A stretch of DNA of 37,232 bases, taken from the IMG/VR virus record IMGVR_UViG_2531839665_000022, one strand, 5' to 3'. The stretch comes from a virus. Lineage: Duplodnaviria > Heunggongvirae > Uroviricota > Caudoviricetes. The notes under the pieces were generated by a model, which did not search any database, was not told the DNA's origin, and saw nothing but the letters and a program-made list of their open reading frames with translations. Of the stretch, positions 1 through 36,659 are shown piece after piece; position 1 is the first letter of the stretch, and every line of letters begins with the position of its first letter. Position numbers and translations under genes: made by a program.

Positions 1-390
1 TTACTCTTTTTTCTCCGTATCTACATCGGGTTCATCAGCAAATAGCTTGCCCTGCATCCGATCCAGTTCTTCTTTTCTTACCCGCTTAACCACGCTGTAG
101 ACCCACTGAAGCGAAACACCAAATTTGCGGGCCAGTTCATGGTGATTACGTCCGTTAAACTCCCTGAAGATTTCCCGGTCGCGCTGACTGACCTTCCATA
201 CCATGCCCATCGGGAAATAAACGTTTTGCCCGCCCCAGACCTGCATCATGCGGTTCGCGACGGCCTGACCAATCTGGTCGGCAATTGCGGGCTCAATATC
301 AATAATCTCGCGAACGGTCTCAGAGGTATGCTGTGCCAGTTCCACCAGGAGTTCCGGCCCTTTACTTCGAAACTGATTCAGGTCGCTCAT
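1..390 (-). CDS. Mor/C-family transcriptional activator (middle/late operon regulator)
   Basis: 129-aa ORF, same length as Mu Mor; C-terminal HTH-like region (GRNHHELARKFGVSLQWVYSVVKR); last gene of the minus-strand early operon, directly after the GemA-like gene as in Mu. Stop codon is at window positions 1-3. Confidence 0.7.
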   Translation of the reverse strand: MSDLNQFRSKGPELLVELAQHTSETVREIIDIEPAIADQIGQAVANRMMQVWGGQNVYFPMGMVWKVSQRDREIFREFNGRNHHELARKFGVSLQWVYSVVKRVRKEELDRMQGKLFADEPDVDTEKKE

Positions 391-853
391 GTTTTACTCC
401 CGCAGCTCTGCGCTGCCACTTCTTCAGTTTCTCAATAACACTGCTTGCCTGTTCAGTATTGAGCCAGCGCAGGGCGCTGATGCCCGTTTCCCGCTTGATC
501 CACCGCGCTAATGCATTTTCTGAACGGTCACGAACAATGCCGGCAGCAGCCATTTCAAGCCATAGCGCACGGATTTTCCTGGATTGCGGATGGTTATCCA
601 GCGGTAAACCGGAGCTGGCTTTTCCTGCAGGCCTAACGCGAAAGCCTTTCCTTTTCATGGATTCCAGCACGCAGTTTAGTTGTGTGGTATCCATTCCTTT
701 GGTTGAGGCTTTACCGGTCAGCCCCTGTAACATCTGGCGGTAGGTGTCTTCATCCATACCCAGTTCATTACGGGCAATATGAATGAGCTGGATAAGACGT
801 TGTTTAGTCATCATCGTTGCTCCTTCTGCCTGCATCACCGATATAATCGACAT
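362..853 (-). CDS. GemA-like protein (Mu gp16 family)
   Basis: N-terminal KQRLIQLIHIARNELGMDEDTYRQML matches the conserved GemA/gp16 N-terminal signature; position just upstream of the mor-like gene. Start is ambiguous among several in-frame Met codons. Confidence 0.65.
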   Translation of the reverse strand: MSIISVMQAEGATMMTKQRLIQLIHIARNELGMDEDTYRQMLQGLTGKASTKGMDTTQLNCVLESMKRKGFRVRPAGKASSGLPLDNHPQSRKIRALWLEMAAAGIVRDRSENALARWIKRETGISALRWLNTEQASSVIEKLKKWQRRAAGVKHERPESVSK

Positions 854-1019
854 ATAAAGGAAGTGCCACAGGCCAGCACAGGAACATCACCGACCAGCTA
901 ATCCAGTAACCGGCACCACTGTAACGTGAATAAAACCCTGAACGGCGGTGCAGTTCAGCAGTACACCAACCGACAAAACAATACCAGAACAGGGCACATA
1001 CAACAGATTCAGTCGTCAT
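804..1019 (-). CDS. small hydrophobic protein, unknown function
   Basis: Internal ATG at 1017-1019 of the 804..1175 ORF gives about 71 aa with two hydrophobic segments; start overlaps the stop of the upstream ORF in the style of translational coupling. Confidence 0.35.
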   Translation of the reverse strand: MTTESVVCALFWYCFVGWCTAELHRRSGFYSRYSGAGYWISWSVMFLCWPVALPLYVDYIGDAGRRSNDDD

Positions 1020-1239
1020 TCTGAATATCCCCCCAACTGATATGAATATTACGGGCAGCAATGACAGGGTCTTTATTCCACCATGCACCTGACATGTATT
1101 TTTCAACCTGTTCGCGTCCGGCAATAACACCAATTGTGATCCCCGGCCTGACGTTCTTAAAAAAGGCGCGGGCAAAAAGGTATCTGGCAGATATTCGGCA
1201 GGCTTTTAATTTCCGGCTGTTACCTGATAACGTAATCAT
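1009..1239 (-). CDS. hypothetical early protein
   Basis: 76-aa ORF packed in the minus-strand early operon; 4-bp overlap with the upstream gene. No recognisable domain. Confidence 0.35.
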   Translation of the reverse strand: MITLSGNSRKLKACRISARYLFARAFFKNVRPGITIGVIAGREQVEKYMSGAWWNKDPVIAARNIHISWGDIQNDD

Positions 1240-1919
1240 CTGGCCTCCAGTTTCTGCTGTTCCCGCCCACTGACCGGTCGGTGCAGTCTGACGTTCTGCC
1301 CTTCTCGAAACCCCGCATAGCGCGAGGCGTCGCCATTGCGACTTCTTCCCGGTTTACGCGCCCTGGTGGTTTGCGTCTGCGGGTATTTATGTTCCAGCCA
1401 CTGCTGCATCAGTTCACGTTCGTCATCGGTCAGGGCGAAGGACTGTATTTCACTGATAACGGCCAGCACCCAGCCTTCAGCAAACTGGTCTCCACGGCTG
1501 GTGCGGGTGGCGGTTTTTATTCTTTTGTTCTGTGCACTGATATACTGCTGACGCGCCTTTTTCAGCTGACGGGCCAGCACATCCCAGGTGTACGCGGCCA
1601 GTGCGGCCCGTTCCCGGTTGCCGTAGAACCCCACCCCCGGATATGTGCCGGGGTGAATGATGGAGTTAACACCAAATGCCTCGCGGATGATGTTCATCAG
1701 GCCCAGCATGTAGCGCGGCGGACGGAGGCTGCCTGTCGGCCAGTAGTGACTGATGGTTTCATCAATATCACTCATGGCGATGTCGGAATGTGTGATGCCG
1801 TGAACATCCATCAGTTTACGGGCGCGGCGCAGTGCCAGAGCAGCCTCATGCGGGTTGCCGGATGCTGCCAGCGCCAGCAACTTTTTCAGTTTCTCAATGT
1901 GCTTATCCTGGTCTGTCAT
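1236..1919 (-). CDS. DUF2786-like domain protein
   Basis: N-terminal IEKLKKLLALAASGNPHEAALALRRARKLM resembles the DUF2786 signature common in phage early regions; 227 aa. Confidence 0.55.
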   Translation of the reverse strand: MTDQDKHIEKLKKLLALAASGNPHEAALALRRARKLMDVHGITHSDIAMSDIDETISHYWPTGSLRPPRYMLGLMNIIREAFGVNSIIHPGTYPGVGFYGNRERAALAAYTWDVLARQLKKARQQYISAQNKRIKTATRTSRGDQFAEGWVLAVISEIQSFALTDDERELMQQWLEHKYPQTQTTRARKPGRSRNGDASRYAGFREGQNVRLHRPVSGREQQKLEAR

Positions 1920-2116
1920 TGTTCAGTATCTCCGGTATTTTTTTGCTGTTCCCATGCCCGAACAGCGTCGGACAGCTCTTTCAGGCTGTATGCTGCTTTA
2001 AGCTTTTCCCATAACCACTGCGTCACCACGTGGGTCAGCAGGGCAACCAGGGCGAATCCGGCGCAGATGCACACGGCTATACCAGTAAGCAGGAAAGCCC
2101 ATACCACAATTTCCAT
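1916..2116 (-). CDS. small membrane protein, unknown function
   Basis: ATG at 2114-2116 gives 66 aa (MEIVVWAFLLTGIAVCICAGFALVALLTHVV...) with one clear TM helix; the longer 145-aa reading is a basic, low-complexity extension that overlaps the next gene. Confidence 0.4.
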   Translation of the reverse strand: MEIVVWAFLLTGIAVCICAGFALVALLTHVVTQWLWEKLKAAYSLKELSDAVRAWEQQKNTGDTEQ

Positions 2117-2123
2117 AATGGTG

Positions 2124-2507
2124 TCAGTCACTGGTACCTCCTGTGGTGGTCTGGTCAGGTGCGGCGTGTGTCCTGTGGTATTTCCTGAACCAGTGGTACA
2201 GGGCAGCCAGTTTTCTGTCGATAACTTCAGTTTCCCTGTTGAAGTATTCCTGTGCCTCTTTCTCCTCTTGCGGCGGCAGTTCGCCCGGCCCACACAGGGT
2301 GTTGTAAATCCACGCCATGCCGTTCCTGGCATCACCGGTGGCCCGCCACTCAATCACTGCAGCTTTCATGACGACCAGATTGCGCCCGAAGTACAGGTCC
2401 ACCTCTTCAAATCTCTTGCGCAGGTATTCGTTTTCGTCTTCCAGTACCCGAATACGCTGTGCAGCATCTTCCGGCGTCAGTTGTGGCGTCTGTTCGGTGC
2501 GGTTCAT
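2124..2507 (-). CDS. hypothetical early protein
   Basis: 127-aa ORF with coiled-coil-like N-terminus in the early operon; no recognisable domain. Confidence 0.45.
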   Translation of the reverse strand: MNRTEQTPQLTPEDAAQRIRVLEDENEYLRKRFEEVDLYFGRNLVVMKAAVIEWRATGDARNGMAWIYNTLCGPGELPPQEEKEAQEYFNRETEVIDRKLAALYHWFRKYHRTHAAPDQTTTGGTSD

Positions 2508-2806
2508 ATGATTTCTCCGGTGTATGTGACGCCCAGCCGTGCGGCAAGGCGTTCCAGTTTTTTCTGTTTGTGGAAGTCAATCAGCCGGTCCATTCCCTGA
2601 AGGCGCAGCTGCTCTGTCATGATTTCCACGTCTGCCAGCTCTGCCGCGAGGTCACTTTCGCTGCCCTGTCCGTTCAGGTTGCGGGCGGCACTGGCCGCCA
2701 GTTCAGCGGCCTCTTCTGTCAGTTTCAGGGCCTGTGCGTCCGGCCCGAAACGCTGCAGGGCCAGACGGTAGAGGGCGGTGCGGGTGAGTTCGGTGTTCCG
2801 TGTCAT
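2504..2806 (-). CDS. MazG-like nucleotide pyrophosphohydrolase domain protein
   Basis: 100 aa with paired acidic motifs (LTEEAAELAA ... AAELADVEIMTEQL) typical of small phage MazG-like proteins. Confidence 0.5.
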   Translation of the reverse strand: MTRNTELTRTALYRLALQRFGPDAQALKLTEEAAELAASAARNLNGQGSESDLAAELADVEIMTEQLRLQGMDRLIDFHKQKKLERLAARLGVTYTGEII

Positions 2807-2815
2807 GCCGCGCCC

Positions 2816-3088
2816 TCAGTGTTTCCGGTCGACGGTGATGTTCAGGCCGCCTTCTGCAGTGGTTTCCACCCGGTACGGCACCTCGTGCTCTGCCGTGTGG
2901 GTGAGTGTGTTCATCAGTACCTGCAGGGCAGCCTCCTTTCCGTTGGTTGCCACAATGGCCTGCGTGGCCATGCTGATTAGCGCCGTCAGGACGTGCTTCA
3001 CATCGGTGAGGTCGCGGCATTCACACTCGTTGACATAGTGTTCAACAAGAGTTCGGGTGCGCTGTCGTGCTTCCTGTGGGGTAATCAT
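2816..3088 (-). CDS. hypothetical early protein
   Basis: 90-aa ORF, 4-bp overlap with the downstream gene; no recognisable domain. Confidence 0.4.
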   Translation of the reverse strand: MITPQEARQRTRTLVEHYVNECECRDLTDVKHVLTALISMATQAIVATNGKEAALQVLMNTLTHTAEHEVPYRVETTAEGGLNITVDRKH

Positions 3089-3279
3089 TGCGCGTCCTCC
3101 CTGTCAGGGCGGGAGAATTCCATGACGGGCACGTCCGCCGAAAAATGCTGGCTGCAGTACGGACAGACCAGGGTGACACGTACTGCAGGTACGTGGTACT
3201 TACCGGACATCACGGCGATGGCGCTGTGAAAACGCAGGGCTGTTATATCCCTCTCGCACTGAATACATTTAAATATCAT
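3085..3279 (-). CDS. zinc-ribbon-like small protein
   Basis: 64 aa with two Cys pairs (CIQCERD ... CPYCSQ) spaced like a zinc ribbon. Confidence 0.4.
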   Translation of the reverse strand: MIFKCIQCERDITALRFHSAIAVMSGKYHVPAVRVTLVCPYCSQHFSADVPVMEFSRPDREDAQ

Positions 3280-3376
3280 AATTTAATTCTCCTCTGTTTC
3301 CGGCGTGCAGAAGCCCACGGCGCTGACGCCGGAATAAAAAAGAAAATGTTTTTATTAAATAATTAACGTGGTGTGT

Positions 3377-3907
3377 TTACTGCACATCCTGCTCAAAAGG
3401 AATTATTGAAAAATCCTCAATATCACTTTTTATGGTAATACCGGGAATATTTTTCACGGCGTCCTTTTCATTCAGGATAGCGTCTTTATTTATTTCCTCC
3501 TTTACACGGATAAAGCGCTCAAGCCCCAGACGTCTCAGTAATTCAATAACATTATCCGCCCCACGGATACTGACTGATGGCGGACGGTTTCGCCACTGCA
3601 CCTCGCCGGTGGTGAGGTTAGCGAACTTCACCTTCCCGTTGCCGGTCAGTTCATCACGGTGTGCCTCACACCATGTCTGAATACCGGACTGCAGTTCGGC
3701 CATGCGTTTTTTCAGGCTCTCGGTGAGCGGGGCATAACGTGCGGTGATATCGCCAATGGCGTCATTCATTTCTGTTTCAGCCCTGACCAGTTCACGGTGT
3801 GCGTCACCGAGCAGTCTGATGCCCTCAATGACCTCTTCACGTGTCCCCGGCACCCAGAGTGCTGCTGCGGCCTTGATACGTTTTGCACCTTTTGTACTTT
3901 TTGCCAT
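3377..3907 (-). CDS. gam: Gam-like host-nuclease inhibitor protein
   Basis: 176 aa, collinear with Mu Gam as I recall it: MAK..KRIK.AAA, TEMNDAI..IT, WCEA.RDELT..GKVK.ANL.TG.V.WR.RPPSVSIRG, LGL.RFIR.K.EINK.AIL, GIT.KS.IEDFSIIPFEQ. Confidence 0.85.
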   Translation of the reverse strand: MAKSTKGAKRIKAAAALWVPGTREEVIEGIRLLGDAHRELVRAETEMNDAIGDITARYAPLTESLKKRMAELQSGIQTWCEAHRDELTGNGKVKFANLTTGEVQWRNRPPSVSIRGADNVIELLRRLGLERFIRVKEEINKDAILNEKDAVKNIPGITIKSDIEDFSIIPFEQDVQ

Positions 3908-3934
3908 TTTTTATGATTTCTCCAGTTGTGCTGA

Positions 3935-4204
3935 TTACCACAAAGATTCCGGCCACACGACGCGACAGCCGTGCAGTTCGAAAACGCCCTGACGGAAATA
4001 TCCCCTGTGGTCATGTCCGGTATACAGATAACAGGCCTTTCCCTGCTCAAGCATGCGCATGCAATGCGCACTCCTGGAAACGCGGATGACAGGTTTGTTA
4101 CCCCTGATGGTGATGCTTTGTACATCCGTGTTCGTCGCCTTAAGCGCCATAATGGCTGACTGCACTTTACTGATTTGCTGGTTGATACCTGTGGTGGATT
4201 TCAT
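3935..4204 (-). CDS. hypothetical protein
   Basis: 89-aa ORF between the B-like and Gam-like genes; no recognisable domain. Confidence 0.35.
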   Translation of the reverse strand: MKSTTGINQQISKVQSAIMALKATNTDVQSITIRGNKPVIRVSRSAHCMRMLEQGKACYLYTGHDHRGYFRQGVFELHGCRVVWPESLW

Positions 4205-4206
4205 TA

Positions 4207-5400
4207 TTAAACCCCTTTGACAACGTCAGCGTTGACCTGTGGAACCCCGATTTCAGCGGCCAGATTCATGGCGGCTATTACCAGGTTACTGACGGCCAGC
4301 GGATACAGCAGGCTGACCCTGTTTTTACGATGACTTCCCGGATTGCTCAGGCGGGCACGTATGGCATCCACTGCGCCGGTGTCCATAATGTCCGTCAGTT
4401 GTTTACCGGCCCGTTGCAGTTTGAACGTCAGAAATTCTTCAAGGTGATTGTCCAGAGGCAGAAGTTCGACCACCTCACAGCGCTGAACGACTTCGCGGAC
4501 TTCCATGTTGCGTTCAGACAGTTTTGTCGCCAGTTCCGGCTGGCCAATCAGCACGATGGACAGCAGCTTTTTGAAACCGGACTCCAGCTCAAAAAAGCGT
4601 TTGAGGTGTTTCAGTGTCGGAATGGGCAGACTGTGAGCCTCCTCAATCACCAGAACGTGGCTGAACCCCGCCTGGTTGCTGTCTTTCAGGACGCGATGCA
4701 ACTGGCGAAAGCGGGCGTCCTGACTGCGTCTGATGCTTTCCAGTGGTGCGATGGTACTGATAATGGCTTCGGCAATCGCTGCTGCCTTCAGAGTTTTCCC
4801 TTTCACATCGTTGTCTTCCATAGCGATGATGTATGGCTCGATAACAATCACTGGCGCATTCTCGCGGTTGATACGTTCAGTCAGGTCACGGCGCAGCGTG
4901 GATTTACCCGCACCGGACTCACCGATGACGGCCATAAACCCACCATGACGGGCTGTCTGGTACAACGCCTCACGCACGTAGCGAATGTCTGGTGTGGTGA
5001 ACACATCATCAGAACCCTGCATGGCTTCGTCGGCGAACGGGTCACGGAAAAGACCAAACGCTTTTTTGGTTGCTGGAAATAACACCTGTTTTTTGAGTAA
5101 CATATTCTCTTCCTCACTGAGGCTCGTTTTATCTGTGGTACCCGCTGTACGGGGCGTGGCCGCGCCCTGTACAGCATCAAAACTCTTCGCTGTATCAATC
5201 CCCTGACTTTCCAGCCAGGACGCAAGACGCCGGCGCACTTCTCCGGGGCTGGTGCGGGGCCACGCGTTATGATTCACAATCTGGGCCAGCGTGGCCTCAG
5301 AAACATCGACAGCTCTCGCCACCACCGCCTGTGGAATACGGGCCTCTTTCAGTTGCTGCTTCAGTACCAGCATGTTTCCCTCCTCAGTTGCCGTTAACAA
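4207..5400 (-). CDS. AAA+ ATPase, Mu B-like transposition target-capture protein
   Basis: N-terminal HTH-like segment, Walker A (VIGESGAGKST), Walker B-like (HVLVIEEAHSL); lies immediately after the transposase gene with a 17-bp overlap. Confidence 0.75.
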   Translation of the reverse strand: MLTATEEGNMLVLKQQLKEARIPQAVVARAVDVSEATLAQIVNHNAWPRTSPGEVRRRLASWLESQGIDTAKSFDAVQGAATPRTAGTTDKTSLSEEENMLLKKQVLFPATKKAFGLFRDPFADEAMQGSDDVFTTPDIRYVREALYQTARHGGFMAVIGESGAGKSTLRRDLTERINRENAPVIVIEPYIIAMEDNDVKGKTLKAAAIAEAIISTIAPLESIRRSQDARFRQLHRVLKDSNQAGFSHVLVIEEAHSLPIPTLKHLKRFFELESGFKKLLSIVLIGQPELATKLSERNMEVREVVQRCEVVELLPLDNHLEEFLTFKLQRAGKQLTDIMDTGAVDAIRARLSNPGSHRKNRVSLLYPLAVSNLVIAAMNLAAEIGVPQVNADVVKGV

Positions 5401-7153
5401 TGCTGATAACGCTGCTGCGGGCCGGCGTGGTCAGCGTGGCCATGACTTCATCCAGTGCGGCTTCCGGTACGCCGTCCGGATACTGTGCCGTTAACTGGCG
5501 GTAATGTTCCGGCGTCCAGGTAAGGCCGTCGGCGCTGAACTTATCGCGCAGGGCTTTCGCGGCCTCCACATGAGTCATGGGACGTTGTTCAGTGCGCAGC
5601 CCGCGTACGTCAGAGGCCTGACCTCGCTTCGGTATACAGGCCGGAAGTGTGGCGTCATCAATATGTTTATATGGGTCAAGCCGCCCGCCGAACGGCAGCG
5701 CCTTCGCCTTGCGTGCGGCAGCTGCATCTGCGGCGTTGTCTGTACCGGTGACCAGCGCTTCGGTTTCTTTTGCCGCCATCTGCGCCGGGGTTTCCGGCAG
5801 GGCTTTGTAACTTTCGCCAAATACCGCCGCGCTTTCAGCAAAGCCAAACTCGTTCTTTCTGACCTCTTCGACCAGGAAGAACGCCTCGTGGCCGTCCTCA
5901 CCGGTCAGAACCACCTGTGCCACATCGCTGCGCCACGGGTTACGGGTAATCATCAGTTTTTCACCGACCAGTACGCCCGGTACCGTTGATACGTCAAATT
6001 CAGTGCCCCGGAACGAGACACGAAGTTTTGGCGTGACTTTGCGGAGTTCTGGTGTCGCCACAGCCAGTTCACGGCATACCTCAACGGAAGGCGCTTTTTT
6101 CAGCTGCTCAGCAGTAATCTTCAGCCAGATATCCGTGCGGGTTTTACCGTGGCGGCTGTGAACAGCCGTGGCGTTAAAGTGGCTGCGCCATTTCGCGGCC
6201 AGCGCGTTGAGTTCTTCCAGACTGTGAACCGGCCGGAACTTCAGACCCGGCTCCAGCTTGCGTTCGATAATGTCACGCGCCTTTTCCACCTGTCCGGTGG
6301 CGCGGGCGTTATGCGGCTTGTGTGCTATCAGGTCGATGCCCAGTGAGCGGCACATGTTTTTCGTCATACCCGCGGTGTTTGCCGAGCCGGGGTCGAGATA
6401 GAGTATTTTCGGCACGCCGTGCAGCACGTCTGCGCCGCCACGCTCCTGCATGGCGTTGATAAGCACAGAACACAGGTTCTCACCGGATTCCGCACCCGTC
6501 ACATACTCAACGTAAATCCAGCCGCTGGCATGGTCGGTAATCTCGTAACTCCACACGCGGTCACTGGCGATACAGGCAAGGTTAGCGGGCTTGTTCTTGT
6601 AGAACTTCGCGCTGTCCATCACCTGCAGTCCTTTGTGTCCATTACTCAGGTAGTAAAGCGTGCAGAGCGAGGCATCAATCTGCCAGACATGATTGGGATG
6701 CAGACTGGCCACTTCGGTATGCGGCGCAGGGGCATCCAGTTGTTCCGGGTGCAGGCCATAGTTACGCAGGGCTCGGCTGATGGCATCTTCGGACAACGGG
6801 AAAAACTCACCGGTGGTTTCATCTGTTCTGCCTGCGGAGATAAAGCCATTAGCCCGCAGGGTTTCCACTGCATCCGCGATGGAATAGAGACGCTTACCGT
6901 TCTTGCGGGTGGCCTCACGCAGTGTGGCAGATATCAGCGCGGCTTCGTCGCGGGTCAGGGCGCTGCGCCCGGCATCGGCGCGTTTTTTGCGTTTATCAGT
7001 CACAGAGACCTCCTTCAGCCTGCGCAGCAGAGTGGCGCGGGACATGCCAAGTTCAGCACAGGCAGCGTCGTATATTGCACCGCGTTTACCATGCCCCGCG
7101 TCACGTGCCGCGCGGGCGACATAAACCAGTCGTTCAGTCAGGGCAGCATTCAT
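5384..7153 (-). CDS. DDE transposase, Mu A-like (integrase-core fold)
   Basis: 589 aa; N-terminal HTH (MSRATLLRRLKEV), candidate catalytic residues in the HVWQIDAS and ILYLDPGSANTAG segments, followed by the B-like ATPase. Confidence 0.8.
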   Translation of the reverse strand: MNAALTERLVYVARAARDAGHGKRGAIYDAACAELGMSRATLLRRLKEVSVTDKRKKRADAGRSALTRDEAALISATLREATRKNGKRLYSIADAVETLRANGFISAGRTDETTGEFFPLSEDAISRALRNYGLHPEQLDAPAPHTEVASLHPNHVWQIDASLCTLYYLSNGHKGLQVMDSAKFYKNKPANLACIASDRVWSYEITDHASGWIYVEYVTGAESGENLCSVLINAMQERGGADVLHGVPKILYLDPGSANTAGMTKNMCRSLGIDLIAHKPHNARATGQVEKARDIIERKLEPGLKFRPVHSLEELNALAAKWRSHFNATAVHSRHGKTRTDIWLKITAEQLKKAPSVEVCRELAVATPELRKVTPKLRVSFRGTEFDVSTVPGVLVGEKLMITRNPWRSDVAQVVLTGEDGHEAFFLVEEVRKNEFGFAESAAVFGESYKALPETPAQMAAKETEALVTGTDNAADAAAARKAKALPFGGRLDPYKHIDDATLPACIPKRGQASDVRGLRTEQRPMTHVEAAKALRDKFSADGLTWTPEHYRQLTAQYPDGVPEAALDEVMATLTTPARSSVISIVNGN

Positions 7154-7156
7154 TGG

Positions 7157-8068
7157 TTATGCCTCCAGCCCGTTAATCTGTGGCGTCGGCTCAGTCAGCC
7201 ATGAAGGCGCTGCATTGCCTGTTGGCTCGTCCGGCAGGTCAAATGTGGAGCGCAGGCTACGCGCTGTGCTTTCCAGTTGACAGACCAGGCCTGCCATGAA
7301 GTCTCTGGGGGTATCAATCATGTTTTCAGCACAATATGCGCACAGTGTCTCAAAAGCGCTGGACAGTCGAACGGCGATAGCAGATTCCGCCTCAACCGCT
7401 AATGCTGTCACTTCCGCCCGCAGCTTCTTAACCTCCTCATCAGGCTCAGGCGGCTGAATACGGGATTTCTTTTCCAGTCTGGTAGAGAGAGAATCAATTT
7501 TTTCATTTTTATCGGCGAGTACGCGCTGTTGTGCTGCGTTGGTTTCGCGCGCTTCGCGCAGGGCCTGGCGAAGTTCGCGTACTGACATGCGATCAACGTC
7601 GTCAAGCGTCAGGCCGGCAACTGTGCCGCCGTCGGCCAGTTCGGCAAGCTCTTCGTCGTCTTCTGTCATTAATTCGAAAAGTTTGGCTTTTCCCAAATGT
7701 GCCAACGTTGGCACATTTGGTTTCAGCGCCGGGGATAAGTATTTTGTCGATGCTTGCATCATTCTCACAGATGTCCGGTATGCCAGCCCCAACTCACTTT
7801 CAAGAATCTTTATAAACTCCCCGTGTGGTTCATTTTCCTTAAGGATTATCAGCCGCTTACCTGCCTCCAGCATGGCCTCAGCGCTCTGTGCCATATAAAA
7901 GCGTGCCTCATGGACAACACGATCGCGCTCATAGGGCAGACCATCGCCGAACTGTTGCATGATTTCCATGCGATGCTGTGTCATGGCGTTTAGACTGACA
8001 TTGAGATCATCCGACAGCGGTACCTCGACGTTCAGTTCAGTGCTAACCGGTGATTTGGTGCGTCCCAT
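7157..8068 (-). CDS. hypothetical early protein with coiled-coil region
   Basis: 303-aa ORF between the regulators and the transposase; acidic and coiled-coil-like middle; no domain I can name. Confidence 0.45.
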   Translation of the reverse strand: MGRTKSPVSTELNVEVPLSDDLNVSLNAMTQHRMEIMQQFGDGLPYERDRVVHEARFYMAQSAEAMLEAGKRLIILKENEPHGEFIKILESELGLAYRTSVRMMQASTKYLSPALKPNVPTLAHLGKAKLFELMTEDDEELAELADGGTVAGLTLDDVDRMSVRELRQALREARETNAAQQRVLADKNEKIDSLSTRLEKKSRIQPPEPDEEVKKLRAEVTALAVEAESAIAVRLSSAFETLCAYCAENMIDTPRDFMAGLVCQLESTARSLRSTFDLPDEPTGNAAPSWLTEPTPQINGLEA

Positions 8069-8078
8069 TGATTACTCC

Positions 8079-8387
8079 TTACAAACGACTACCTGAAATA
8101 ACACGTTGGTTGATTTCGTTAATGCGATCCTGTGCACGTGCCATCTCGTTACTGTGGGCCATGGCGATCTGCAGCAACTGGATGCCTGGTGCGAAACGCC
8201 CGTTTTCTAGTTTCAGAGCCAACCCTTCTTCAATGAGCGTGTTAAGTGCCCGGTTGATGTTTGCCGGTGATTCGTGCAGTGCAACCGCTAGTTCCCCGTT
8301 AGAAACACCGTTCAAAGCGTGGCCACGTAAGGCCTTAAGAACGCGCAAAATACGGGTACCTGAGCTTGATGTATTTGGTTTATTCAT
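8079..8387 (-). CDS. winged-helix DNA-binding protein (IclR/MarR-like HTH)
   Basis: 102 aa; RILRVLKALRGHALNGVSNGELAVALHESPANINRALNTLIEEGLAL looks like a winged-helix HTH. Confidence 0.5.
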   Translation of the reverse strand: MNKPNTSSSGTRILRVLKALRGHALNGVSNGELAVALHESPANINRALNTLIEEGLALKLENGRFAPGIQLLQIAMAHSNEMARAQDRINEINQRVISGSRL

Positions 8388-8614
8388 GACGCCTCCTTAA
8401 GGATACCGGGGGTAACTTCTTTACCTATTGCAACCGATAGATCTCGCAAAATCCGATAAGTCAAACGACCGCGAGGTAGTTCACTTTTACCAGCCCAGCG
8501 ACTGACTGCCTGGGTGACTGTTCGTGGTTCATAGCCCGCGTTAAGCGCGAACTGGCGCAAGCTACTGCCTCGTTCAACCAGCCGTGCCCGAACTTGTTGT
8601 TTGTTCATATGCAC
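8384..8614 (-). CDS. Ner-like DNA-binding protein
   Basis: 76 aa, first gene of the minus-strand early operon; SLRQFALNAGYEPRTVTQAVSRW parallels the Mu Ner HTH segment as I recall it; divergent from the repressor gene. Confidence 0.55.
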   Translation of the reverse strand: MHMNKQQVRARLVERGSSLRQFALNAGYEPRTVTQAVSRWAGKSELPRGRLTYRILRDLSVAIGKEVTPGILKEAS

Positions 8615-8696: not shown

Positions 8697-9104
8697 ATGA
8701 GTACAAAAGAGAGATTGCGTGAAGTGATGGATGCTAATGGCATGACAATAAAGGCATTATCTGACTTATCAAAAATTCCATATCGCTCACTTCAAAACTA
8801 TTTGCGTGGAGAGAGAGAACCAAACGCAGAGGCTCTTGTTGCGCTAAGTGCCCATTTGGGTGTATCGATCGATTGGCTACTTACCGGTAAAGAACATATT
8901 CCATCTAAAGAAATTGTTGCTGTACCAACACAACATCAATTCAGCCCGTCAGACCTTAAAATGCTTGAACTTCTAAACCAGTTAGATCCTGAGGTTCGGC
9001 GAGATCTCATGCGAGGCGCTGAAGAAAAACAGCGTGTGATTGAGATGGAAAAACAACTGAAGGAATTATCCGCAACGATTGAGCGGTTAAAAAATGTGGG
9101 TTAA
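8697..9104 (+). CDS. XRE-family HTH repressor (prophage repressor candidate)
   Basis: Start placed at ATG 8697 (MSTKERLREVMDANGMTIKALSDLSKIPYRSLQNYLRGEREP), a classic XRE-type HTH, 135 aa; divergent from the early operon. The upstream 32 codons of the listed 167-aa ORF are hydrophobic and lie within the operator region. Confidence 0.7.
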   Translation: MSTKERLREVMDANGMTIKALSDLSKIPYRSLQNYLRGEREPNAEALVALSAHLGVSIDWLLTGKEHIPSKEIVAVPTQHQFSPSDLKMLELLNQLDPEVRRDLMRGAEEKQRVIEMEKQLKELSATIERLKNVG

Positions 9105-9174
9105 TGTGTTCCTAACGAGAACATATAGCAGAAATTATTTGCCATTAAGCAATAAAAAATAAGGTGGATAGCCA

Positions 9175-10182
9175 ATGTCTGAGCAGACCATTGAAGTTAA
9201 ACACGTTGTAGTTCACATTTTAGACAAACAACAAAATGGAGACGCTTCTGAGAGATTGAGTCCTGAAGAAGGTCTAGTTACTGAAGCCTCTCAGCGCCTT
9301 ATAAACGATATTTGTGCAAAATATGCAGGACGCACAGGTAAAGGTTATGGCTATTTTGAAGGCGATACGGATAACTATCCTATGGAACGAATGGCTGGGG
9401 ACTTTCTCGAAGGTGTTGATGATTTCTACCAAAGTTCCTGCCGAATGATGCATCACCTGACGGAACGTTCTCAGCGAGAAAACATGGCTACTGGTGGTTA
9501 TGTTCTTTTTGCAAATATCGTGATAGGACACAATGAACACCTGTTGATAGCTATTGTAAGCGCTACCATTGGGTCCACTGTCACAGATGATTTTAACATC
9601 CAAGATAGTACCTATCTTGATATTGCTAAGCTGCGTATGGCTGGGCGCATTGACTTAACCGCGTGGGAAAGTGGCGCAGAGCGCTATATCAGTTTTCTTA
9701 AGGGGCAAGGTAATGTTTCAAACTATTTTAAACAGTTCCTAGGCTGTAATGATGTCTTAATCGCCAAACGAGAGTCTGAAAAGTTACGTGACGTTTTAAA
9801 AGCATTTGCGGCAGAGAAAGGACTTGACGGCGCTGAAAAAGATGCATTTCTTAAGAGTGCGTTTGAACACTTACATGCACTAAGTAAGGCTGGTGAACCA
9901 CTTAGTCTTGAAACCCTTGTTAATGCCATTTGGCCCCAGGCTCCCGAGGAGTTATCTGGTAAACTTGCTGCTGAAGAGTTGGAGTTATCGGATGGCTTCG
10001 TTCCTGATGGTCGAGTCATTCGGGCTCTGGTATCTTTTAAAGGCAAGTCTAAATATTGGGAACTTAAGTTTGACCGGGAAGGGAAAACTGAAGGCTATAT
10101 TGATTATGATCCGGAAACAAATATTATCACCCTACGTAATGTACCTGAAGAATTTAGGGAAATGTGGATGACTGAGGTTTAA
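9175..10182 (+). CDS. NdpA/YejK-like nucleoid-associated protein homolog
   Basis: 335 aa, same length as E. coli YejK; collinear motifs as I recall YejK: (V/I)HxLDK near the N-terminus, GGYVLFANIV, and RIDLTAWESGAERYISFLKG...FKQFLG matching RIDLTEWE...RYLTFLKG...FFMDFLG. AT-rich codon usage unlike the flanking phage genes. Confidence 0.6.
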   Translation: MSEQTIEVKHVVVHILDKQQNGDASERLSPEEGLVTEASQRLINDICAKYAGRTGKGYGYFEGDTDNYPMERMAGDFLEGVDDFYQSSCRMMHHLTERSQRENMATGGYVLFANIVIGHNEHLLIAIVSATIGSTVTDDFNIQDSTYLDIAKLRMAGRIDLTAWESGAERYISFLKGQGNVSNYFKQFLGCNDVLIAKRESEKLRDVLKAFAAEKGLDGAEKDAFLKSAFEHLHALSKAGEPLSLETLVNAIWPQAPEELSGKLAAEELELSDGFVPDGRVIRALVSFKGKSKYWELKFDREGKTEGYIDYDPETNIITLRNVPEEFREMWMTEV

Positions 10183-10184
10183 TC

Positions 10185-11390
10185 GTGGCGATTTCATTTG
10201 AGATGCTGACAGCTCTGTATCGTCGTATGGAATTCCAAGAGGGGTTTCGTGTCGGTTCGCTGTTGCTCTTAGATCAGTCCGATTGTGATCTGGTTGATAC
10301 TTTGCTTGATGATCCTCGTGAATATGGTCTTTCTATTGATACAGGCACTATCGCTCCAGGTAACACGATCATCCTACGTGTGACGTCACCACGGAGTGGA
10401 CTGGGACTTGTGTTTTCCACCCATGAAAAATTGCTAAATGCTCCAAAGCATCAGTGCCTTGAGCCAGCTAATTACTTCATCCTAGAAACAAAATTTCGTA
10501 ATGATGATGAAGATATCCCCGTTTTCATCAGCAACTACCGGAAGATTCTCGAGTTCGTTAACCTGCTAAAAGAGGCCGCGGCCTACTTTGATAACTCAAC
10601 TTGTCAGTTAGTTTTTCTGAAAAAAGAAGTTATCAAGCTATTACCGCACTTCGCTGCAGAAAATGTACAAAATTTGCAAAGGGAGTATCTTGATAACCTT
10701 ATAGCTTGTTTCAATGATGATACCCATAAGGATCAGAAGCTAGATATTCTGATTGAAAGTATTCAAGCAGTTAGTGATGGAATTGATTCACCTCTAGTAT
10801 TCGCTTATTTACTGGACAATATTCAGCGTCTGCATGAAAAGTTTCTGAAAGGGTATCGTATCTACTCTTCTGGATTCTCTTATGACAAAGTAATGGATCA
10901 ACTGCGTGCTGCAAAAGTCGAAGAAATGGGTAAAATCCACAAAGCGTTTTCAGATATCCAGAACCATATACTTGGCATTCCTGTTGCCTCTGTTATCGTA
11001 GCTACCCAATTCAAAGTGGCTACGAAATGGTCAGGCCAAGGGATAACAAACACAATAATTCTTCTGGGATGCATTTTTGCTGCAACGTTAATCTGGCTGG
11101 CACTTTCGAACCAGATGCAATCTATAAAGGCCTTAGGCGAAGAAATTGAATACAAAGAAAAACAGATTAATAAGGAATATTCCTTCATTAAAGATGACGT
11201 GGCTGGTGTATTTAGCAGTATTTCTGCGCGACTAGACACGCAGAAACGTACGTTCTGGATTATACGTGGTGTTCTAGTTATGGGAATTATTACCGCTATC
11301 ACTGTTTATTTTTGGTACACAAAACCAGCCCTTGACTTCATGCAGTACTTGATTCACTGCATGAAGTCTTACTATTCGGTCAAAAGTTGA
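10185..11390 (+). CDS. hypothetical protein with two C-terminal transmembrane helices
   Basis: 401 aa, starts 3 bp after the NdpA-like stop (operon partner); soluble N-terminal region then TM helices GITNTIILLGCIFAATLIWLALS and FWIIRGVLVMGIITAITVYFWY; AT-rich; no domain I can name. Confidence 0.5.
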   Translation: MAISFEMLTALYRRMEFQEGFRVGSLLLLDQSDCDLVDTLLDDPREYGLSIDTGTIAPGNTIILRVTSPRSGLGLVFSTHEKLLNAPKHQCLEPANYFILETKFRNDDEDIPVFISNYRKILEFVNLLKEAAAYFDNSTCQLVFLKKEVIKLLPHFAAENVQNLQREYLDNLIACFNDDTHKDQKLDILIESIQAVSDGIDSPLVFAYLLDNIQRLHEKFLKGYRIYSSGFSYDKVMDQLRAAKVEEMGKIHKAFSDIQNHILGIPVASVIVATQFKVATKWSGQGITNTIILLGCIFAATLIWLALSNQMQSIKALGEEIEYKEKQINKEYSFIKDDVAGVFSSISARLDTQKRTFWIIRGVLVMGIITAITVYFWYTKPALDFMQYLIHCMKSYYSVKS

Positions 11391-12150
11391 GGATAATGAG
11401 TTCCTTCTTGCGACTGGATTTGCCAGTGATCTTGAGGTTGTAGCTGATATCAACCGACTGAATATTTAGACCGTTGAATGCCTGCCGCATTTCCGGGATA
11501 TCGTTCACCGATATAATCATCTTCCCTTTGATCCTGCGTGCTAAATCTGCCATATGATCATAATTTTCTAGTCCGAACTCCACACCATAACCTTCCGTTC
11601 CCCAGTATGGAGGGTCACAGTAGAACAACGTATGCGGGCGATCATATCGTTCTATGCACTGTTGCCAGTCCATGTGTTCTATGACCGTTCTGGAAAGCCG
11701 CAGGTGTGCCGCTGACAGTTCTTCTTCAATACGCAGCAGGTTGAAGCGTGGCGGGGATATGGTGGAGGTACCAAAGCTGTGCTCCGCCACCTTGCCCCCA
11801 AACGCCTGCTTCTGAAGGTAATAGAACCGTGCTGCACGCTGGATATCCGTCAGTGTTTCTTCCGGGGTGATCTGCAGCCATTTGTAGATCTGCCGGCTGA
11901 CCAGCGCCCATTTGAACTGGCGTACAAATTCTTCCAGATGATGTTTTACCACCCGATACAGGTTCACCAGCTCACCGTTGATATCATTAATGACTTCGAT
12001 CTTGCCGGGTACCTTAAGAAAATAGAGCGCTGCTGCCCCACAAAACGGCTCCACATAACATTCATGCGCCGGAAACAGCGGCAGGATGTGTTTTGCAAGG
12101 CGGCGTTTGCCACCAATCCATGGAACGATGGGTAATGTCTGCATTTTCAT
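11380..12150 (-). CDS. DNA adenine methyltransferase (Dam family)
   Basis: 256 aa; SAM-binding motif EPFCGAAALYF and catalytic DPPY motif (FYCDPPYW); convergent with and overlapping the upstream plus-strand gene by 11 bp. Confidence 0.8.
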   Translation of the reverse strand: MKMQTLPIVPWIGGKRRLAKHILPLFPAHECYVEPFCGAAALYFLKVPGKIEVINDINGELVNLYRVVKHHLEEFVRQFKWALVSRQIYKWLQITPEETLTDIQRAARFYYLQKQAFGGKVAEHSFGTSTISPPRFNLLRIEEELSAAHLRLSRTVIEHMDWQQCIERYDRPHTLFYCDPPYWGTEGYGVEFGLENYDHMADLARRIKGKMIISVNDIPEMRQAFNGLNIQSVDISYNLKITGKSSRKKELIILNF

Positions 12151-12397
12151 AATCTGTAAGCCTTTTACAATTATAAAAAATATGGCAGGCTAGTCTGGTC
12201 TCGCGAGACTGACTGAACCTTGGTCGGCTCACAGCGCATTCCTGTGGGGCGATGGCCAGCCCGGTGTTCGGGTACCGGGCTGGTCGTTCTTTCAAAGCCA
12301 TCATGCAGTGCACGTTTACATCTTCACTATTAACGCTGTTTAAAATCCGTATCCCGCCACATTTGTGATGCTGTCTCCACCAAACGAGGAGACACAC

Positions 12398-33578: not shown

Positions 33579-34502
33579 ATGGCAAATCTACCCGAAACCC
33601 CGCAGTGGGAAAGCGGCATCTACCAGATTGAGGTCTCTGACCCCGTTCTGGGCGGACCTGACGGAATTTCTAACCGCCAGGCTAAACAACTGGCCAGCCG
33701 AACGTCATACCTCAAACAGAAGGTCGAAAAAAGCGGAACAGACCTGGCTGCACATATCGCGGCAGTTGACCCGCATACCCAGTACGCGACGAAAGCCAGT
33801 CCGACATTCACCGGCACACCAACAGCACCTACACCTGCAAATGGTGATAACAGCAAAAAGCTGGCGACGACGGAGTTTGTGGCCAAAGCACTTGCGGCAC
33901 TTGCAGGCAGCGCCCCTGAGACACTGGATACGCTTAAAGAGCTGGCTGACGCTCTCGGTAATGATCCAAACTTTGCGACTACGGTACTGAACAAGCTGGC
34001 GGAAAAGCTGGCTAAAGACCAGAACGGCGCAGATATTCCTGAGCCTGCGCTGTTTGTCAAAAACCTTGGTTTGGGGGAAGGCTCAGCGCTGCCCGTTGGT
34101 GTGCCCGTTCCGTGGCCCTCAGCCACACCGCCAGCAGGGTGGCTGAAATGTAACGGCGCAGCATTTTCTTCTGAAATGTACCCCAATCTGGCAAAGGCTT
34201 ATCCTACAAATAAATTACCGGATTTACGGGGTGAGTTTATTCGCGGCTGGGATGACGGGCGGGGAATTGATTCAGGACGTACTCTACTTTCGTTACAGGG
34301 CGATATGTTTAAATCGCACAGTCATTACTTCCGTGAAATATGGGGTGCAAATGGACCAGATGGAACTGGTGGACCGTACATTGTCGGGGCGGATACAAAC
34401 GGTTCGAGAATAAATTTAGGCACTATAGAAACCAGTGCACCTGGTGGTTCAGAAACCCGTCCCCGTAACATTGCATTTAATTACATCGTAAGAGCCGTAT
34501 GA
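33579..34502 (+). CDS. tail fibre protein with exchangeable collar-domain tip (cassette 1 currently fused)
   Basis: 307 aa; N-terminal conserved fibre region; from codon about 165 it enters the repeated segment GEGSALPVGVPVPWPSATPPAGWLKCNGAAFSSEMYP...LPDLRGEFIRGWDDGRGID and ends with RPRNIAFNYIVRA (phage tail collar domain signature). Confidence 0.8.
   Translation: MANLPETPQWESGIYQIEVSDPVLGGPDGISNRQAKQLASRTSYLKQKVEKSGTDLAAHIAAVDPHTQYATKASPTFTGTPTAPTPANGDNSKKLATTEFVAKALAALAGSAPETLDTLKELADALGNDPNFATTVLNKLAEKLAKDQNGADIPEPALFVKNLGLGEGSALPVGVPVPWPSATPPAGWLKCNGAAFSSEMYPNLAKAYPTNKLPDLRGEFIRGWDDGRGIDSGRTLLSLQGDMFKSHSHYFREIWGANGPDGTGGPYIVGADTNGSRINLGTIETSAPGGSETRPRNIAFNYIVRAV
34054..34280 (+). repeat. 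cassette-1 recombination site plus shared 5' homology block
   Basis: 26-bp site TTGTCAAAAACCTTGGTTTGGGGGAA (34054-34079) with the perfect dyad AAACC-TT-GGTTT; left half resembles the hix/gix half-site consensus as I recall it; followed by about 200 bp nearly identical to three other copies. Confidence 0.6.
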
Positions 34503-34722
34503 AAACGTTGGTTTGGGGGAAGGCTCTGCACTGCCCGTTGGTGTGCCCGTTCCGTGGCCCTCAGCCACACCGCCAGCAGGGTGGCTGAAATGTAACGGTG
34601 CAGCATTTTCTTCTGAAATGTACCCCAAACTGGCAAAAGCCTACCCCGCGAATAAATTACCGGATTTACGGGGTGAGTTTATTCGCGGCTGGGATGACGG
34701 GCGGGGAATTGATTCAGGGCGT
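34496..34722 (+). repeat. cassette-2 recombination site plus shared 5' homology block (direct copy)
   Basis: Site CGTATGAAAACGTTGGTTTGGGGGAA (34496-34521), right half identical to site 1; overlaps the stop codon of the fused fibre gene. Confidence 0.55.
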
Positions 34723-35016
34723 TCCTTGCTTAATGCACAATCACATTCGGTTATAGATCATATTCACTATATGGAGTTATGGACTGGTGAAGGGCTTGCC
34801 GCAAATAGCACCCGTGCAGGAACAAACCCTGGTATACTGGCTACATACGGTGATGGCGGGATTGTTAAAACAGATGAGTCAGGTGTAAAAGTTCCATCTT
34901 CACTACGTGCTATTGGCACTCGTGGTGTTTATAGATTAGGTGCCAACGGAGGGAATACAGGAACGGAAAACCGCCCCCGTAATATTGCGTTTAACTATAT
35001 TGTAAGGGCTACTTAA
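34513..35016 (+). CDS. alternative tail-fibre tip cassette 2 (collar domain), not fused in this orientation
   Basis: 167 aa starting with the same about 70-aa segment as the fibre tip and ending RPRNIAFNYIVRAT, with a distinct middle; directly downstream of a hix-like site; no own RBS. Confidence 0.65.
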   Translation: MGEGSALPVGVPVPWPSATPPAGWLKCNGAAFSSEMYPKLAKAYPANKLPDLRGEFIRGWDDGRGIDSGRSLLNAQSHSVIDHIHYMELWTGEGLAANSTRAGTNPGILATYGDGGIVKTDESGVKVPSSLRAIGTRGVYRLGANGGNTGTENRPRNIAFNYIVRAT

Positions 35017-35633: not shown

Positions 35634-35639
35634 ATATAA

Positions 35640-36605: not shown

Positions 36606-36659
36606 AACTCCCACCTATACCAGCTATGTATTTTTAACAAAACAAAGAGGATATTTTTC

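What the first reader, a model, noticed from the sequence alone, without database searches (positions are those of the whole stretch)
9175..11390. AT-rich two-gene island beside the repressor: NdpA/YejK-like protein plus a two-TM partner, possibly a defence or exclusion module
The two genes are separated by 3 bp, are markedly more AT-rich than the phage backbone, and sit at the lysogeny-expressed position next to the repressor where Mu-type phages have no conserved genes. The first is a full-length homolog of a host nucleoid-associated DNA-binding protein; the second is an uncharacterised 401-aa protein with two C-terminal TM helices. A DNA-binding sensor paired with a membrane effector fits superinfection-exclusion or abortive-infection logic, but I know of no described system containing an NdpA-family protein.
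Basis: partly seen in the sequence, partly recalled or inferred. Interest (0 to 1): 0.75.

Follow-up and report, generated by a model that had tools for sequence, protein, structure and literature searches.

The report
Prophage-borne NAP–membrane defence gene pair
A two-gene cargo cassette in a Mu-like E. coli prophage pairs a YejK-type nucleoid protein with a membrane protein; it is a divergent relative of the recently validated DS-1 / type II PANGU anti-phage systems, so it is most likely a defence module of an already described kind.

Summary
Window 9125-11398 is a sharply bounded, AT-rich insert (41% GC against 55%) holding two translationally coupled genes: a full-length NA37/YejK-family protein (A, 335 aa) and a 401-aa partner (B). 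B has an acidic α/β N-terminal domain and C-terminal membrane helices.

DefensePredictor (bioRxiv 2025, Science 2026) validated DS-1, a YejK-domain protein followed by a 404-aa two-TM protein. A 2026 preprint describes PANGU, whose type II is a NAP plus a TM effector with an acidic N-terminal domain.

A and B both hit the NCBIfam DS-1 models significantly, but far below the equivalog cut-offs (about 23% identity). I therefore read this as a distinct subfamily.

The pair is tightly co-conserved: 41 of 46 genome loci found via B, and 52 of 53 viral contigs found via A. It rides in cargo slots of Mu-like and lambdoid prophages.

Most likely function: a prophage-encoded abortive-infection system in which the NAP senses loss of host DNA and activates the membrane protein. 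There is no experimental evidence for this subfamily.

Verdict: new member of a known kind, modest interest.

The parts
9125..11398 (.). Cargo insert (about 2.27 kb, 41.2% GC) between the repressor gene and the 3' end of the Dam methylase gene.
   Evidence: Homology with phage KP12 runs to 9124 and resumes at 11399. Similar breakpoints are seen against other E. coli prophages. This is the lowest-GC stretch of its size in the window.
9161..9168 (+). Shine-Dalgarno-like AAGGTGGA, 6 nt upstream of the ATG of gene A. No terminator-like site lies between the repressor stop (9104) and gene A.
   Evidence: Sequence read; terminator scan.
9175..10182 (+). Gene A: a 335-aa NA37/YejK-family nucleoid-associated protein, the putative sensor. 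It lacks the N-terminal zinc ribbon of DS-1A.
   Evidence: Pfam NA37 1e-80. PHROG 3767 at 7e-117. NCBIfam YejK 186 bits, below the cut-off of 341, and DS1_1_antiphage 63.7 bits at E 1.4e-17, below the cut-off of 330. PDB 9be2 YejK 6.8e-30. hhalign against DS-1A gives 97.8% probability.
10174..10177 (+). GAGG ribosome-binding site for gene B, inside the 3' end of gene A. The stop-to-start gap is 2 nt, which implies translational coupling.
   Evidence: In 41 related loci the A-B gap is -20 to +16 nt.
10185..11390 (+). Gene B: the 401-aa partner and putative membrane effector. It overlaps the convergent Dam gene by 11 bp.
   Evidence: PHROG 5023 at 2e-142 and no Pfam family. NCBIfam DS1_2_antiphage 75.9 bits at E 3e-21, below the cut-off of 315; all 40 of 40 family members hit that model. 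hhalign against DS-1B gives 95.7% probability over 273 columns.
10185..10880 (+). B residues 1-232: a cytoplasmic α/β-plus-helical N-terminal domain, acidic (residues 1-260 have net charge -11 and pI 5.0). It is the candidate NAP-binding ('DMK'-like) domain.
   Evidence: AF2 model with pLDDT 93.8 and pTM 0.89. Charge analysis. No structural neighbour in the PDB.
10851..11015 (+). B residues 223-277: the most conserved block of the family (GY..F.SGFSYDKV....AKVEE.GKIHK.FSDIQNQILGIPVATVIVATQ.K). It leads into the first hydrophobic segment.
   Evidence: Invariant columns of alignment A1. The same block aligns with DS-1B.
11052..11108 (+). B residues 290-308: predicted transmembrane helix (Kyte-Doolittle 2.33).
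   Evidence: it lies within the long helix 284-331 of the AF2 model.
11250..11306 (+). B residues 356-374: predicted transmembrane helix (Kyte-Doolittle 1.95).
   Evidence: it lies within helix 333-378 of the AF2 model.
8697..9104 (+). Context: the HTH_3 / cI-DicA-type repressor gene, same strand and immediately upstream. It is the probable source of lysogenic transcription into the cassette.
   Evidence: Pfam HTH_3 2e-12 and Phage_CI_repr 1.7e-6. PHROG transcriptional-repressor families. RefSeq start position.
11380..12150 (-). Context: a convergent Dam-type N6-adenine DNA methyltransferase that forms the right boundary of the insert. It is a backbone gene, not part of the cassette.
   Evidence: Pfam MethyltransfD12 7e-28. 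It is conserved in relatives that lack the cassette.

Best explanation
The pair is a prophage-carried, two-gene anti-phage system of the NAP-plus-membrane-effector kind (DS-1 / type II PANGU-like).

Proposed working:
1. The cassette is expressed in the lysogen, probably by read-through from the repressor operon (inferred).
2. Protein A, a YejK-type nucleoid-associated protein, sits on the host chromosome (inferred from family membership).
3. When a superinfecting lytic phage degrades host DNA, A is released (shown for Pag1A and Pag2A in the PANGU preprint, inferred here).
4. Free A binds the acidic cytoplasmic N-terminal domain of B (shown for Pag2A and the Pag2B N-domain, KD 19 nM; inferred here).
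5. This switches the C-terminal membrane helices of B into a toxic state, presumably membrane permeabilisation or depolarisation, so the infected cell stops supporting phage growth (abortive infection). The effector step is unknown even for the published systems.

A Mu-like prophage replicates within the host chromosome. A sensor of chromosome destruction would therefore protect the prophage's own interest.
For: Homology to a validated system:
- A and B hit the paired NCBIfam models DS1_1 (E 1.4e-17) and DS1_2 (E 3e-21).
- All 40 of 40 B-family members hit DS1_2.
- BLASTP against the DS-1 proteins gives 8e-9 and 6e-10; hhalign gives 97.8% and 95.7%.
- DS-1 has the NAP gene first, followed by a 404-aa two-TM protein. 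It reduced plating of Bas1 by about 7.6 logs and Bas26 by about 2.7 logs.

Architecture matches type II PANGU, a NAP plus a partner with an acidic N-domain and a C-terminal TM region. In that system both genes were required, the phenotype was Abi-like, and the NAP relocalised on T4 infection. Here, B residues 1-260 have net charge -11 and pI 5.0, the C-terminal part has pI 9.25 with 2-3 hydrophobic helices, and DS-1B shows the same pattern.

Co-conservation:
- An NA37 gene lies directly upstream of B in 41 of 46 genome loci.
- B lies directly downstream of A in 52 of 53 viral contigs.
- The A-B gap is -20 to +16 nt, and the divergence of the two proteins co-varies with r = 0.97.

Mobile cargo behaviour:
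- The insert is sharply bounded and AT-rich.
- It is present in 19 of the 637 E. coli genomes that carry the backbone.
- The same cassette sits at the Q/holin site of lambdoid prophages and in a chromosomal island next to an Mrr nuclease.

Expression: it is on the same strand as the repressor, 70 bp downstream, with no terminator-like site between them.

A 40%-identical NAP, WP_077474557.1, is independently scored as defensive by DefensePredictor with log-odds 11.7.
Against: - No experiment exists for this subfamily.
- Similarity to DS-1 is remote: 22-23% identity, with scores 4-5 fold below NCBIfam's equivalog cut-offs.
- The first 70 or so residues of B do not align with DS-1B.
- PADLOC (2023) has no model for either protein.
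- The negative charge of B's N-domain is moderate and varies across the family, from -1 to -15. 'DNA mimicry' is therefore not established.
- A is itself acidic overall (net -19, pI 4.9).
- I could not compare against the PANGU sequences because none are held. Membership of type II PANGU rests on architecture only.
- The published effector mechanism for the TM partner is explicitly unresolved.
- Expression in the lysogen is inferred, not shown.
- DS-1 and PANGU-Ecu have different reported phage spectra, so the trigger may differ between subfamilies.
Confidence: 0.7

Rival explanations
1. Superinfection exclusion rather than abortive infection. B acts at the inner membrane to block DNA entry or early steps of incoming phages, with A as a cytoplasmic regulator. 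The cell survives.
For: B is a membrane protein encoded next to the repressor in a lysogeny-type position. That is typical of prophage exclusion genes (general knowledge). The reduction of Bas1 plating by DS-1 is very strong, 7.6 logs.
Against: PANGU type II behaved as Abi-like: growth arrest at high MOI, and dependence on NAP relocalisation after infection has begun. A strictly coupled, co-evolving cytoplasmic DNA-binding partner is not needed for a simple entry block.
Confidence: 0.1
2. A phage life-cycle function. A is a phage-encoded NAP that remodels or marks DNA for transposition, packaging or gene silencing. B tethers it to the membrane or contributes to lysis timing, since the cassette lies next to lysis genes.
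For: Transposable phages depend on host NAPs (general knowledge). The cassette lies just upstream of holin/endolysin genes in both Mu-like and lambdoid contexts. It is found in Mu-like phages whose transposases have diverged to 43% identity.
Against: - It is absent from 618 of 637 E. coli genomes carrying related backbones, several of which have an empty or differently filled slot.
- It also occurs in non-phage chromosomal islands.
- In a Salmonella prophage it is antisense to the late operon.
- Its homologue DS-1 protects when cloned alone in MG1655.
Confidence: 0.07
3. A toxin-antitoxin-like addiction module that stabilises the prophage. B is a membrane toxin held in check by A.
For: It is a tightly coupled two-gene operon with a membrane protein and a binding partner.
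Against: In PANGU neither single gene nor the pair was toxic, and the NAP acts as an activator, not an antitoxin. In the type II system both genes were needed for defence.
Confidence: 0.05

Closest known systems
DS-1 (DefensePredictor; WP_000355468.1 + WP_000150292.1; NCBIfam NF053868 / NF053869)
   Same: - The gene order is the same, with the NA37/YejK-domain protein first and a partner of about 400 aa immediately after.
- Both proteins are homologous to the window pair.
- The partner has the same layout: an acidic N-terminal region of about 260 aa, a basic C-terminal region, and the conserved F-S-x-x-K / IP block before the hydrophobic helices.
   Different: - Identity is only 22-23%, and scores are 63.7 and 75.9 bits against cut-offs of 330 and 315.
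- DS-1A carries an N-terminal CxxC...CxxC zinc ribbon of about 40 aa that A lacks.
- A is closer to housekeeping YejK (186 bits) than to DS-1A.
- The first 70 or so residues of the partners do not align.
- The window cassette is prophage cargo. I did not examine the genomic setting of DS-1.
Type II PANGU (Pag2A + Pag2B; bioRxiv 10.64898/2026.04.06.716658)
   Same: It is a bicistronic operon of a YejK-like NAP and a partner with an acidic N-terminal domain and a C-terminal TM region, from E. coli. The window pair has all of these features.
   Different: No Pag2 sequences are held, so homology could not be tested. The preprint never mentions prophages, whereas this subfamily is predominantly prophage cargo. 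PANGU-Ecu was reported active against T4 and Bas34; nothing is known for the window pair.
Type I PANGU (Pag1A + GRel toxSAS Pag1B)
   Same: It uses a YejK-like NAP as sensor, and its effector carries an acidic NAP-binding domain.
   Different: Its effector is a soluble alarmone synthetase, not a membrane protein. B has no toxSAS domain.
Housekeeping nucleoid-associated protein YejK/NdpA (PDB 9be2; NCBIfam NF001557)
   Same: A is a full-length, collinear homologue.
   Different: A scores 186 bits, below the equivalog cut-off of 341. It is encoded in an AT-rich mobile insert with an obligate partner gene.
Kiwa (KwaA membrane protein + KwaB DUF4868)
   Same: Both are two-gene systems with a membrane component and a DNA-associated partner. 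The window B gives a weak KwaA hit (8e-5) over its C-terminal helices.
   Different: Only 3 of 40 family members hit KwaA. A has no DUF4868 signal, and the gene order and domain layouts differ. I treat the hit as similarity between membrane helices, not homology.

Membership tests
DS-1 (NCBIfam equivalogs NF053868 DS1_1 / NF053869 DS1_2) | The NAP component scores at or above the curated cut-off of NF053868 (330 bits). | tested here: not met
   63.7 bits, E 1.4e-17. It is homologous but outside the equivalog.
DS-1 (NCBIfam equivalogs NF053868 DS1_1 / NF053869 DS1_2) | The partner scores at or above the curated cut-off of NF053869 (315 bits). | tested here: not met
   75.9 bits, E 3e-21. All 40 of 40 family members hit the model, with a best E of 2.4e-27; the window protein itself is far below the cut-off.
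DS-1 (NCBIfam equivalogs NF053868 DS1_1 / NF053869 DS1_2) | Gene order and architecture: an NA37 gene immediately followed by a partner of about 400 aa with C-terminal TM helices. | tested here: met
DS-1 (NCBIfam equivalogs NF053868 DS1_1 / NF053869 DS1_2) | N-terminal zinc ribbon on the NAP, as in DS-1A residues 1-41. | tested here: not met
   The NA37 domain of A starts at residue 12 and there is no Cys cluster.
DS-1 (NCBIfam equivalogs NF053868 DS1_1 / NF053869 DS1_2) | Protects E. coli from phage when expressed. | not testable with these tools
   This was shown only for DS-1 itself.
Type II PANGU | A YejK-like (NA37) nucleoid-associated protein. | tested here: met
   Pfam NA37 1e-80; PDB YejK 6.8e-30.
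Type II PANGU | A bicistronic operon with adjacent genes less than 40 bp apart. | tested here: met
   The gap is 2 nt here and -20 to +16 nt in 41 related loci.
Type II PANGU | A partner with a C-terminal TM domain and an acidic N-terminal ('DMK') domain. | tested here: met
   TM-like helices at 290-308 and 356-374, plus a weaker one at 262-280. The N-terminal 260 aa have net charge -11 and pI 5.0. AF2 models. The acidity is moderate and varies across the family.
Type II PANGU | Sequence homology to Pag2A and Pag2B. | not testable with these tools
   No sequences or accessions are held for the preprint.
Type II PANGU | High-affinity binding of the NAP to the partner's N-domain; NAP release from the nucleoid on infection; an Abi phenotype requiring both genes. 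| not testable with these tools
   This needs experiments or multimer modelling, and only single-chain prediction was available.
Housekeeping YejK (NCBIfam NF001557 equivalog) | Scores at or above the cut-off of 341 bits. | tested here: not met
   186.2 bits.
Kiwa (KwaA/KwaB) | A KwaA-family membrane protein plus a DUF4868 KwaB partner. | tested here: not met
   The KwaA hit is 8e-5 in the window protein but is present in only 3 of 40 family members. There is no DUF4868 hit in A.

The most novel reading that the evidence does not exclude
This prophage-borne subfamily is a separate lineage of NAP-membrane systems. Its NAP is closer to housekeeping YejK than to DS-1A, and its partner's N-terminal domain has no neighbour among solved structures. 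It may use a different trigger from PANGU's host-genome degradation. For example, it might sense nucleoid changes caused by other transposable or temperate phages. Its C-terminal module may also be a new kind of regulated membrane pore. Working out this pair could then answer the question left open in the PANGU preprint: how a NAP activates a membrane effector.
Probability: 0.12. Interest if true: 0.6.

Novelty: new member of a known kind. Interest (0 to 1): 0.3.

Why it matters
It shows that the newly described NAP-based immune strategy is carried as swappable cargo by temperate phages. The carriers include Mu-like phages, next to the repressor, and lambdoid phages, at the Q/holin site. The published descriptions do not discuss this setting.

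It also gives a natural, compact, well-conserved E. coli example, present in 19 complete genomes and with hundreds of relatives. That example could be used to study the unresolved effector step of type II systems. The same prophage slot holds several other uncharacterised gene sets that are reasonable candidates for further defence systems.

For genome annotation, 'nucleoid-associated protein' plus 'hypothetical protein' at such sites should be read as a probable defence pair rather than a housekeeping NAP.

Tried and rejected
- **PADLOC (2023):** no model for A and only a weak KwaA hit for B. Scanning all 40 family members showed KwaA in only 3, so I rejected a Kiwa relationship.
- **AFDB50 fold search:** the library was unavailable.
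- **Profile search of the B family against PDB sequences:** nothing found.
- **PANGU sequences or accessions:** none held. I could not decide whether PANGU-Ecu is DS-1-like or window-like.
- **Exact RefSeq proteins (WP_000003711.1, WP_001007984.1) in the DefensePredictor tables:** not found in the held, truncated files.
- **Alternative cargos of the same slot in four relatives and KP12:** no PADLOC hit and only DUF2441 in Pfam.
- **Promoter scan:** no convincing dedicated promoter for gene A. The number of promoter-like sites was not above shuffled expectation.
- **Phrase search for DS-1 rows in the EOP table:** failed. I read the table directly instead.
Full report
**What is there**

The window is an almost complete Mu-like transposable prophage of E. 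coli. An rve-type transposase, an ExeA/MuB-like protein, Gam and Mor are read leftward. A cI/DicA-type repressor is read rightward from the divergent control region, followed by lysis and structural genes.

Gene A (9175..10182, 335 aa) and gene B (10185..11390, 401 aa) lie on the + strand directly after the repressor (8697..9104). They are followed by a convergent Dam-type methyltransferase (11380..12150) that overlaps B by 11 bp.

A's TAA and B's GTG are separated by 2 nt, with a GAGG 8 nt upstream of the GTG, so the two are translationally coupled. A good Shine-Dalgarno sequence precedes A, and no terminator-like element separates A from the repressor gene.

**Is it an island?**

Yes. Alignment with related prophages places the breakpoints at about 9124 and 11399, so the insert contains exactly these two genes.

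Its GC content is 41.2% against 54.9% for the rest of the window. No other 2.27-kb stretch falls below 47.4%. The repressor gene is just as AT-rich, so the low-GC tract begins near 8600.

The backbone segment 7160-13480 is found in 637 of 5426 complete E. coli genomes, but only 19 carry the pair. In relatives the slot is either empty, with the repressor followed directly by Dam in strain Ecol_732, or holds unrelated and uncharacterised genes:
- 297 + 145 aa in EC5654;
- 328 + 203 aa + DUF2441 in ATCC 43896;
- 328 + 193 aa plus a 158-aa 'ABC ATPase' in AF14;
- a 177-aa ORF in phage KP12.

**What the proteins are**

A is a full-length NA37 protein: Pfam 1e-80, PHROG 3767 at 7e-117, and collinear with the solved YejK structure 9be2 at 6.8e-30. 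It is not the housekeeping orthologue, scoring 186 bits against a cut-off of 341.

B has no Pfam family but belongs to PHROG 5023. An exhaustive profile search finds 1289 representative clusters at E ≤ 1e-3 and 399 at E ≤ 1e-30.

AlphaFold models give a confident α/β-plus-helical N-terminal domain (residues 1-232, pLDDT 93.8), followed by four long helices. Hydropathy shows strong membrane helices at 290-308 and 356-374, and a weaker, highly conserved one at 262-280. The first 260 residues are acidic (net -11, pI 5.0) and the remainder is basic (pI 9.25).

The N-terminal domain has no meaningful neighbour among solved structures.

**Link to described systems**

NCBIfam contains a paired set of models, DS1_1 'nucleoid-associated anti-phage protein' and DS1_2 'anti-phage protein'. 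A hits the first (E 1.4e-17) and B the second (E 3e-21), both far below the equivalog cut-offs. All 40 B-family members tested hit DS1_2.

These models derive from DS-1 of DefensePredictor (bioRxiv January 2025, Science April 2026; PMC13092281). DS-1 is WP_000355468.1, a 391-aa YejK-domain protein, followed by WP_000150292.1, a 404-aa protein listed with two TM segments. It was validated in MG1655, with -log EOP of 7.6 on Bas1, 2.7 on Bas26 and 1.7 on Bas3 and T3.

Direct comparison gives 23% identity for each pair (E 8e-9 and 6e-10). Profile comparison gives 97.8% and 95.7% probability.

A second source is the PANGU preprint of April 2026 (10.64898/2026.04.06.716658). It defines NAP-based abortive-infection systems. 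Type II pairs a YejK-like NAP (Pag2A) with a partner (Pag2B) that has an acidic N-terminal 'DNA-mimicking' domain and a C-terminal TM domain. In that work:
- both genes were required;
- the NAP bound the N-domain at 19 nM;
- the NAP left the nucleoid on T4 infection;
- the way the membrane effector is activated was left open.

The window pair has every architectural feature of type II. I could not test sequence homology because no PANGU sequences are held.

**Co-conservation and mobility**

Of 46 genome loci retrieved with the B alignment, 41 have an NA37 gene directly upstream on the same strand. The five exceptions are:
- three Cupriavidus loci with a 208-aa ORF matching only B's C-terminal half;
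- one locus cut by a contig end;
- one spurious 25-residue hit.

In the reverse direction, 52 of 53 viral contigs retrieved with the A alignment have a B homologue directly downstream.

The A-B gaps range from -20 to +16 nt. This uses the nearest candidate start, which biases gaps toward small values. The two proteins' identities to the window pair co-vary with r = 0.97, part of which is shared phylogeny.

The cassette rides on different backbones. Of the 53 viral contigs, 22 are Mu-like (transposase identity 43-100%; this count includes L061, which has the same repressor, Dam and holin but is cut before the transposase), 20 are lambdoid with the cassette next to the Q antiterminator, and 11 are unclassified. 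It also sits between Q and the holin in Morganella and Salmonella prophages, in both orientations, and next to an Mrr-type nuclease in a Paraburkholderia chromosome.

**Mechanism**

The best-supported reading is a prophage-encoded abortive-infection system.

Shown here: the family membership of A, the architecture of B, the operon coupling, the co-conservation, the cargo behaviour, and the homology to DS-1.

Taken from the literature for relatives: anti-phage activity, the requirement for both genes, NAP-partner binding, and NAP release when the host genome is degraded.

Inferred for this pair: all functional steps, expression from the repressor operon in lysogeny, and membrane damage as the toxic output.

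From general knowledge rather than tests here: Bas26 and Bas34 are, to my recollection, T5-like phages, and T5-like and T-even phages degrade host DNA early. That would fit a genome-integrity trigger.

**Rivals**

The alternatives are an entry-blocking exclusion system, a role in the phage's own DNA transactions or lysis, and an addiction module. They are less likely for three reasons. The cassette is dispensable for most related prophages. It occurs outside phages. Its homologue protects when cloned alone, and in PANGU no construct was toxic.

**Novelty**

The kind is known: DS-1 since January 2025 and PANGU since April 2026. This pair fails the curated DS-1 thresholds, lacks DS-1A's zinc ribbon, and has a NAP closer to YejK than to DS-1A. 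It is best filed as a new, divergent, prophage-associated member of a known kind.

What remains of interest is modest: the prophage-cargo setting, the structurally unassigned N-terminal domain of B, and the unsolved effector step.

Noticed in passing
window 33579-37232: A multi-cassette invertible tail-fibre region. Collar-domain fibre genes lie in both orientations (33579-34502 +, 34513-35016 +, 35640-36116 -, 36127-36588 -), with a tail-fibre assembly gene (35016-35633 +) and a serine resolvase/invertase (ORF 36465-37232 +). Long inverted repeats at 34458-34713/35916-36171, 34060-34299/36360-36599 and 34501-34721/36380-36600 are 92-96% complementary. It looks like a Mu G-segment-type host-range switch with more than two alternatives.
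   Followed up: partly
window 12294-12325: A second variable slot between the Dam gene and the holin. Related E. coli prophages carry about 1.4 kb with three small unannotated ORFs here (L056 3030-4458), and KP12 carries about 1 kb. This window has almost nothing there.
   Followed up: partly
L057 2178-4781; L058 2181-4353; L059 2277-3567; L001 6544-7077: The same repressor-adjacent slot in related prophages holds other uncharacterised gene sets: 328 + 203 aa + DUF2441, 328 + 193 aa + a 158-aa 'ABC transporter ATPase', 297 + 145 aa, and 177 aa. None matches PADLOC or an informative Pfam family. They are candidates for further prophage defence or exclusion cargo.
   Followed up: partly
L045, L046, L047 at 5992-6618: Cupriavidus genomes and a plasmid contig carry a 208-aa ORF equal to only the C-terminal half of B (44% identity to residues 191-392, including the conserved FSYDKV...IPVATVIVATQ block and the TM helices). 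There is no NA37 gene nearby. It is either a decayed remnant or a stand-alone membrane module.
   Followed up: partly
window 1-8614 versus 8697-37232: The early operon (transposase, MuB-like ExeA, Gam, Mor) is transcribed leftward, away from the repressor and late genes, and the repressor sits mid-genome. This differs from canonical Mu, and from memory it resembles the BcepMu-type arrangement.
   Followed up: no
L095, L098, L099, L101, L109, L112 (IMG/VR contigs): Mu-like phages whose transposase is only about 43-46% identical to the window's still carry an A-type NAP (about 40-43% identical) in the same region downstream of the early operon. All but L101 also have a B homologue directly after it (22-26% identical to the window's B). 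Cassette divergence roughly tracks backbone divergence. This hints at a long association with this phage lineage rather than only recent acquisition, despite the AT-rich composition.
   Followed up: partly
window 11380-11390: The 3' ends of gene B and the convergent Dam gene overlap by 11 bp. Homology with relatives lacking the cassette resumes only at 11399-11459, so the insertion remodelled the C-terminal codons of Dam.
   Followed up: no
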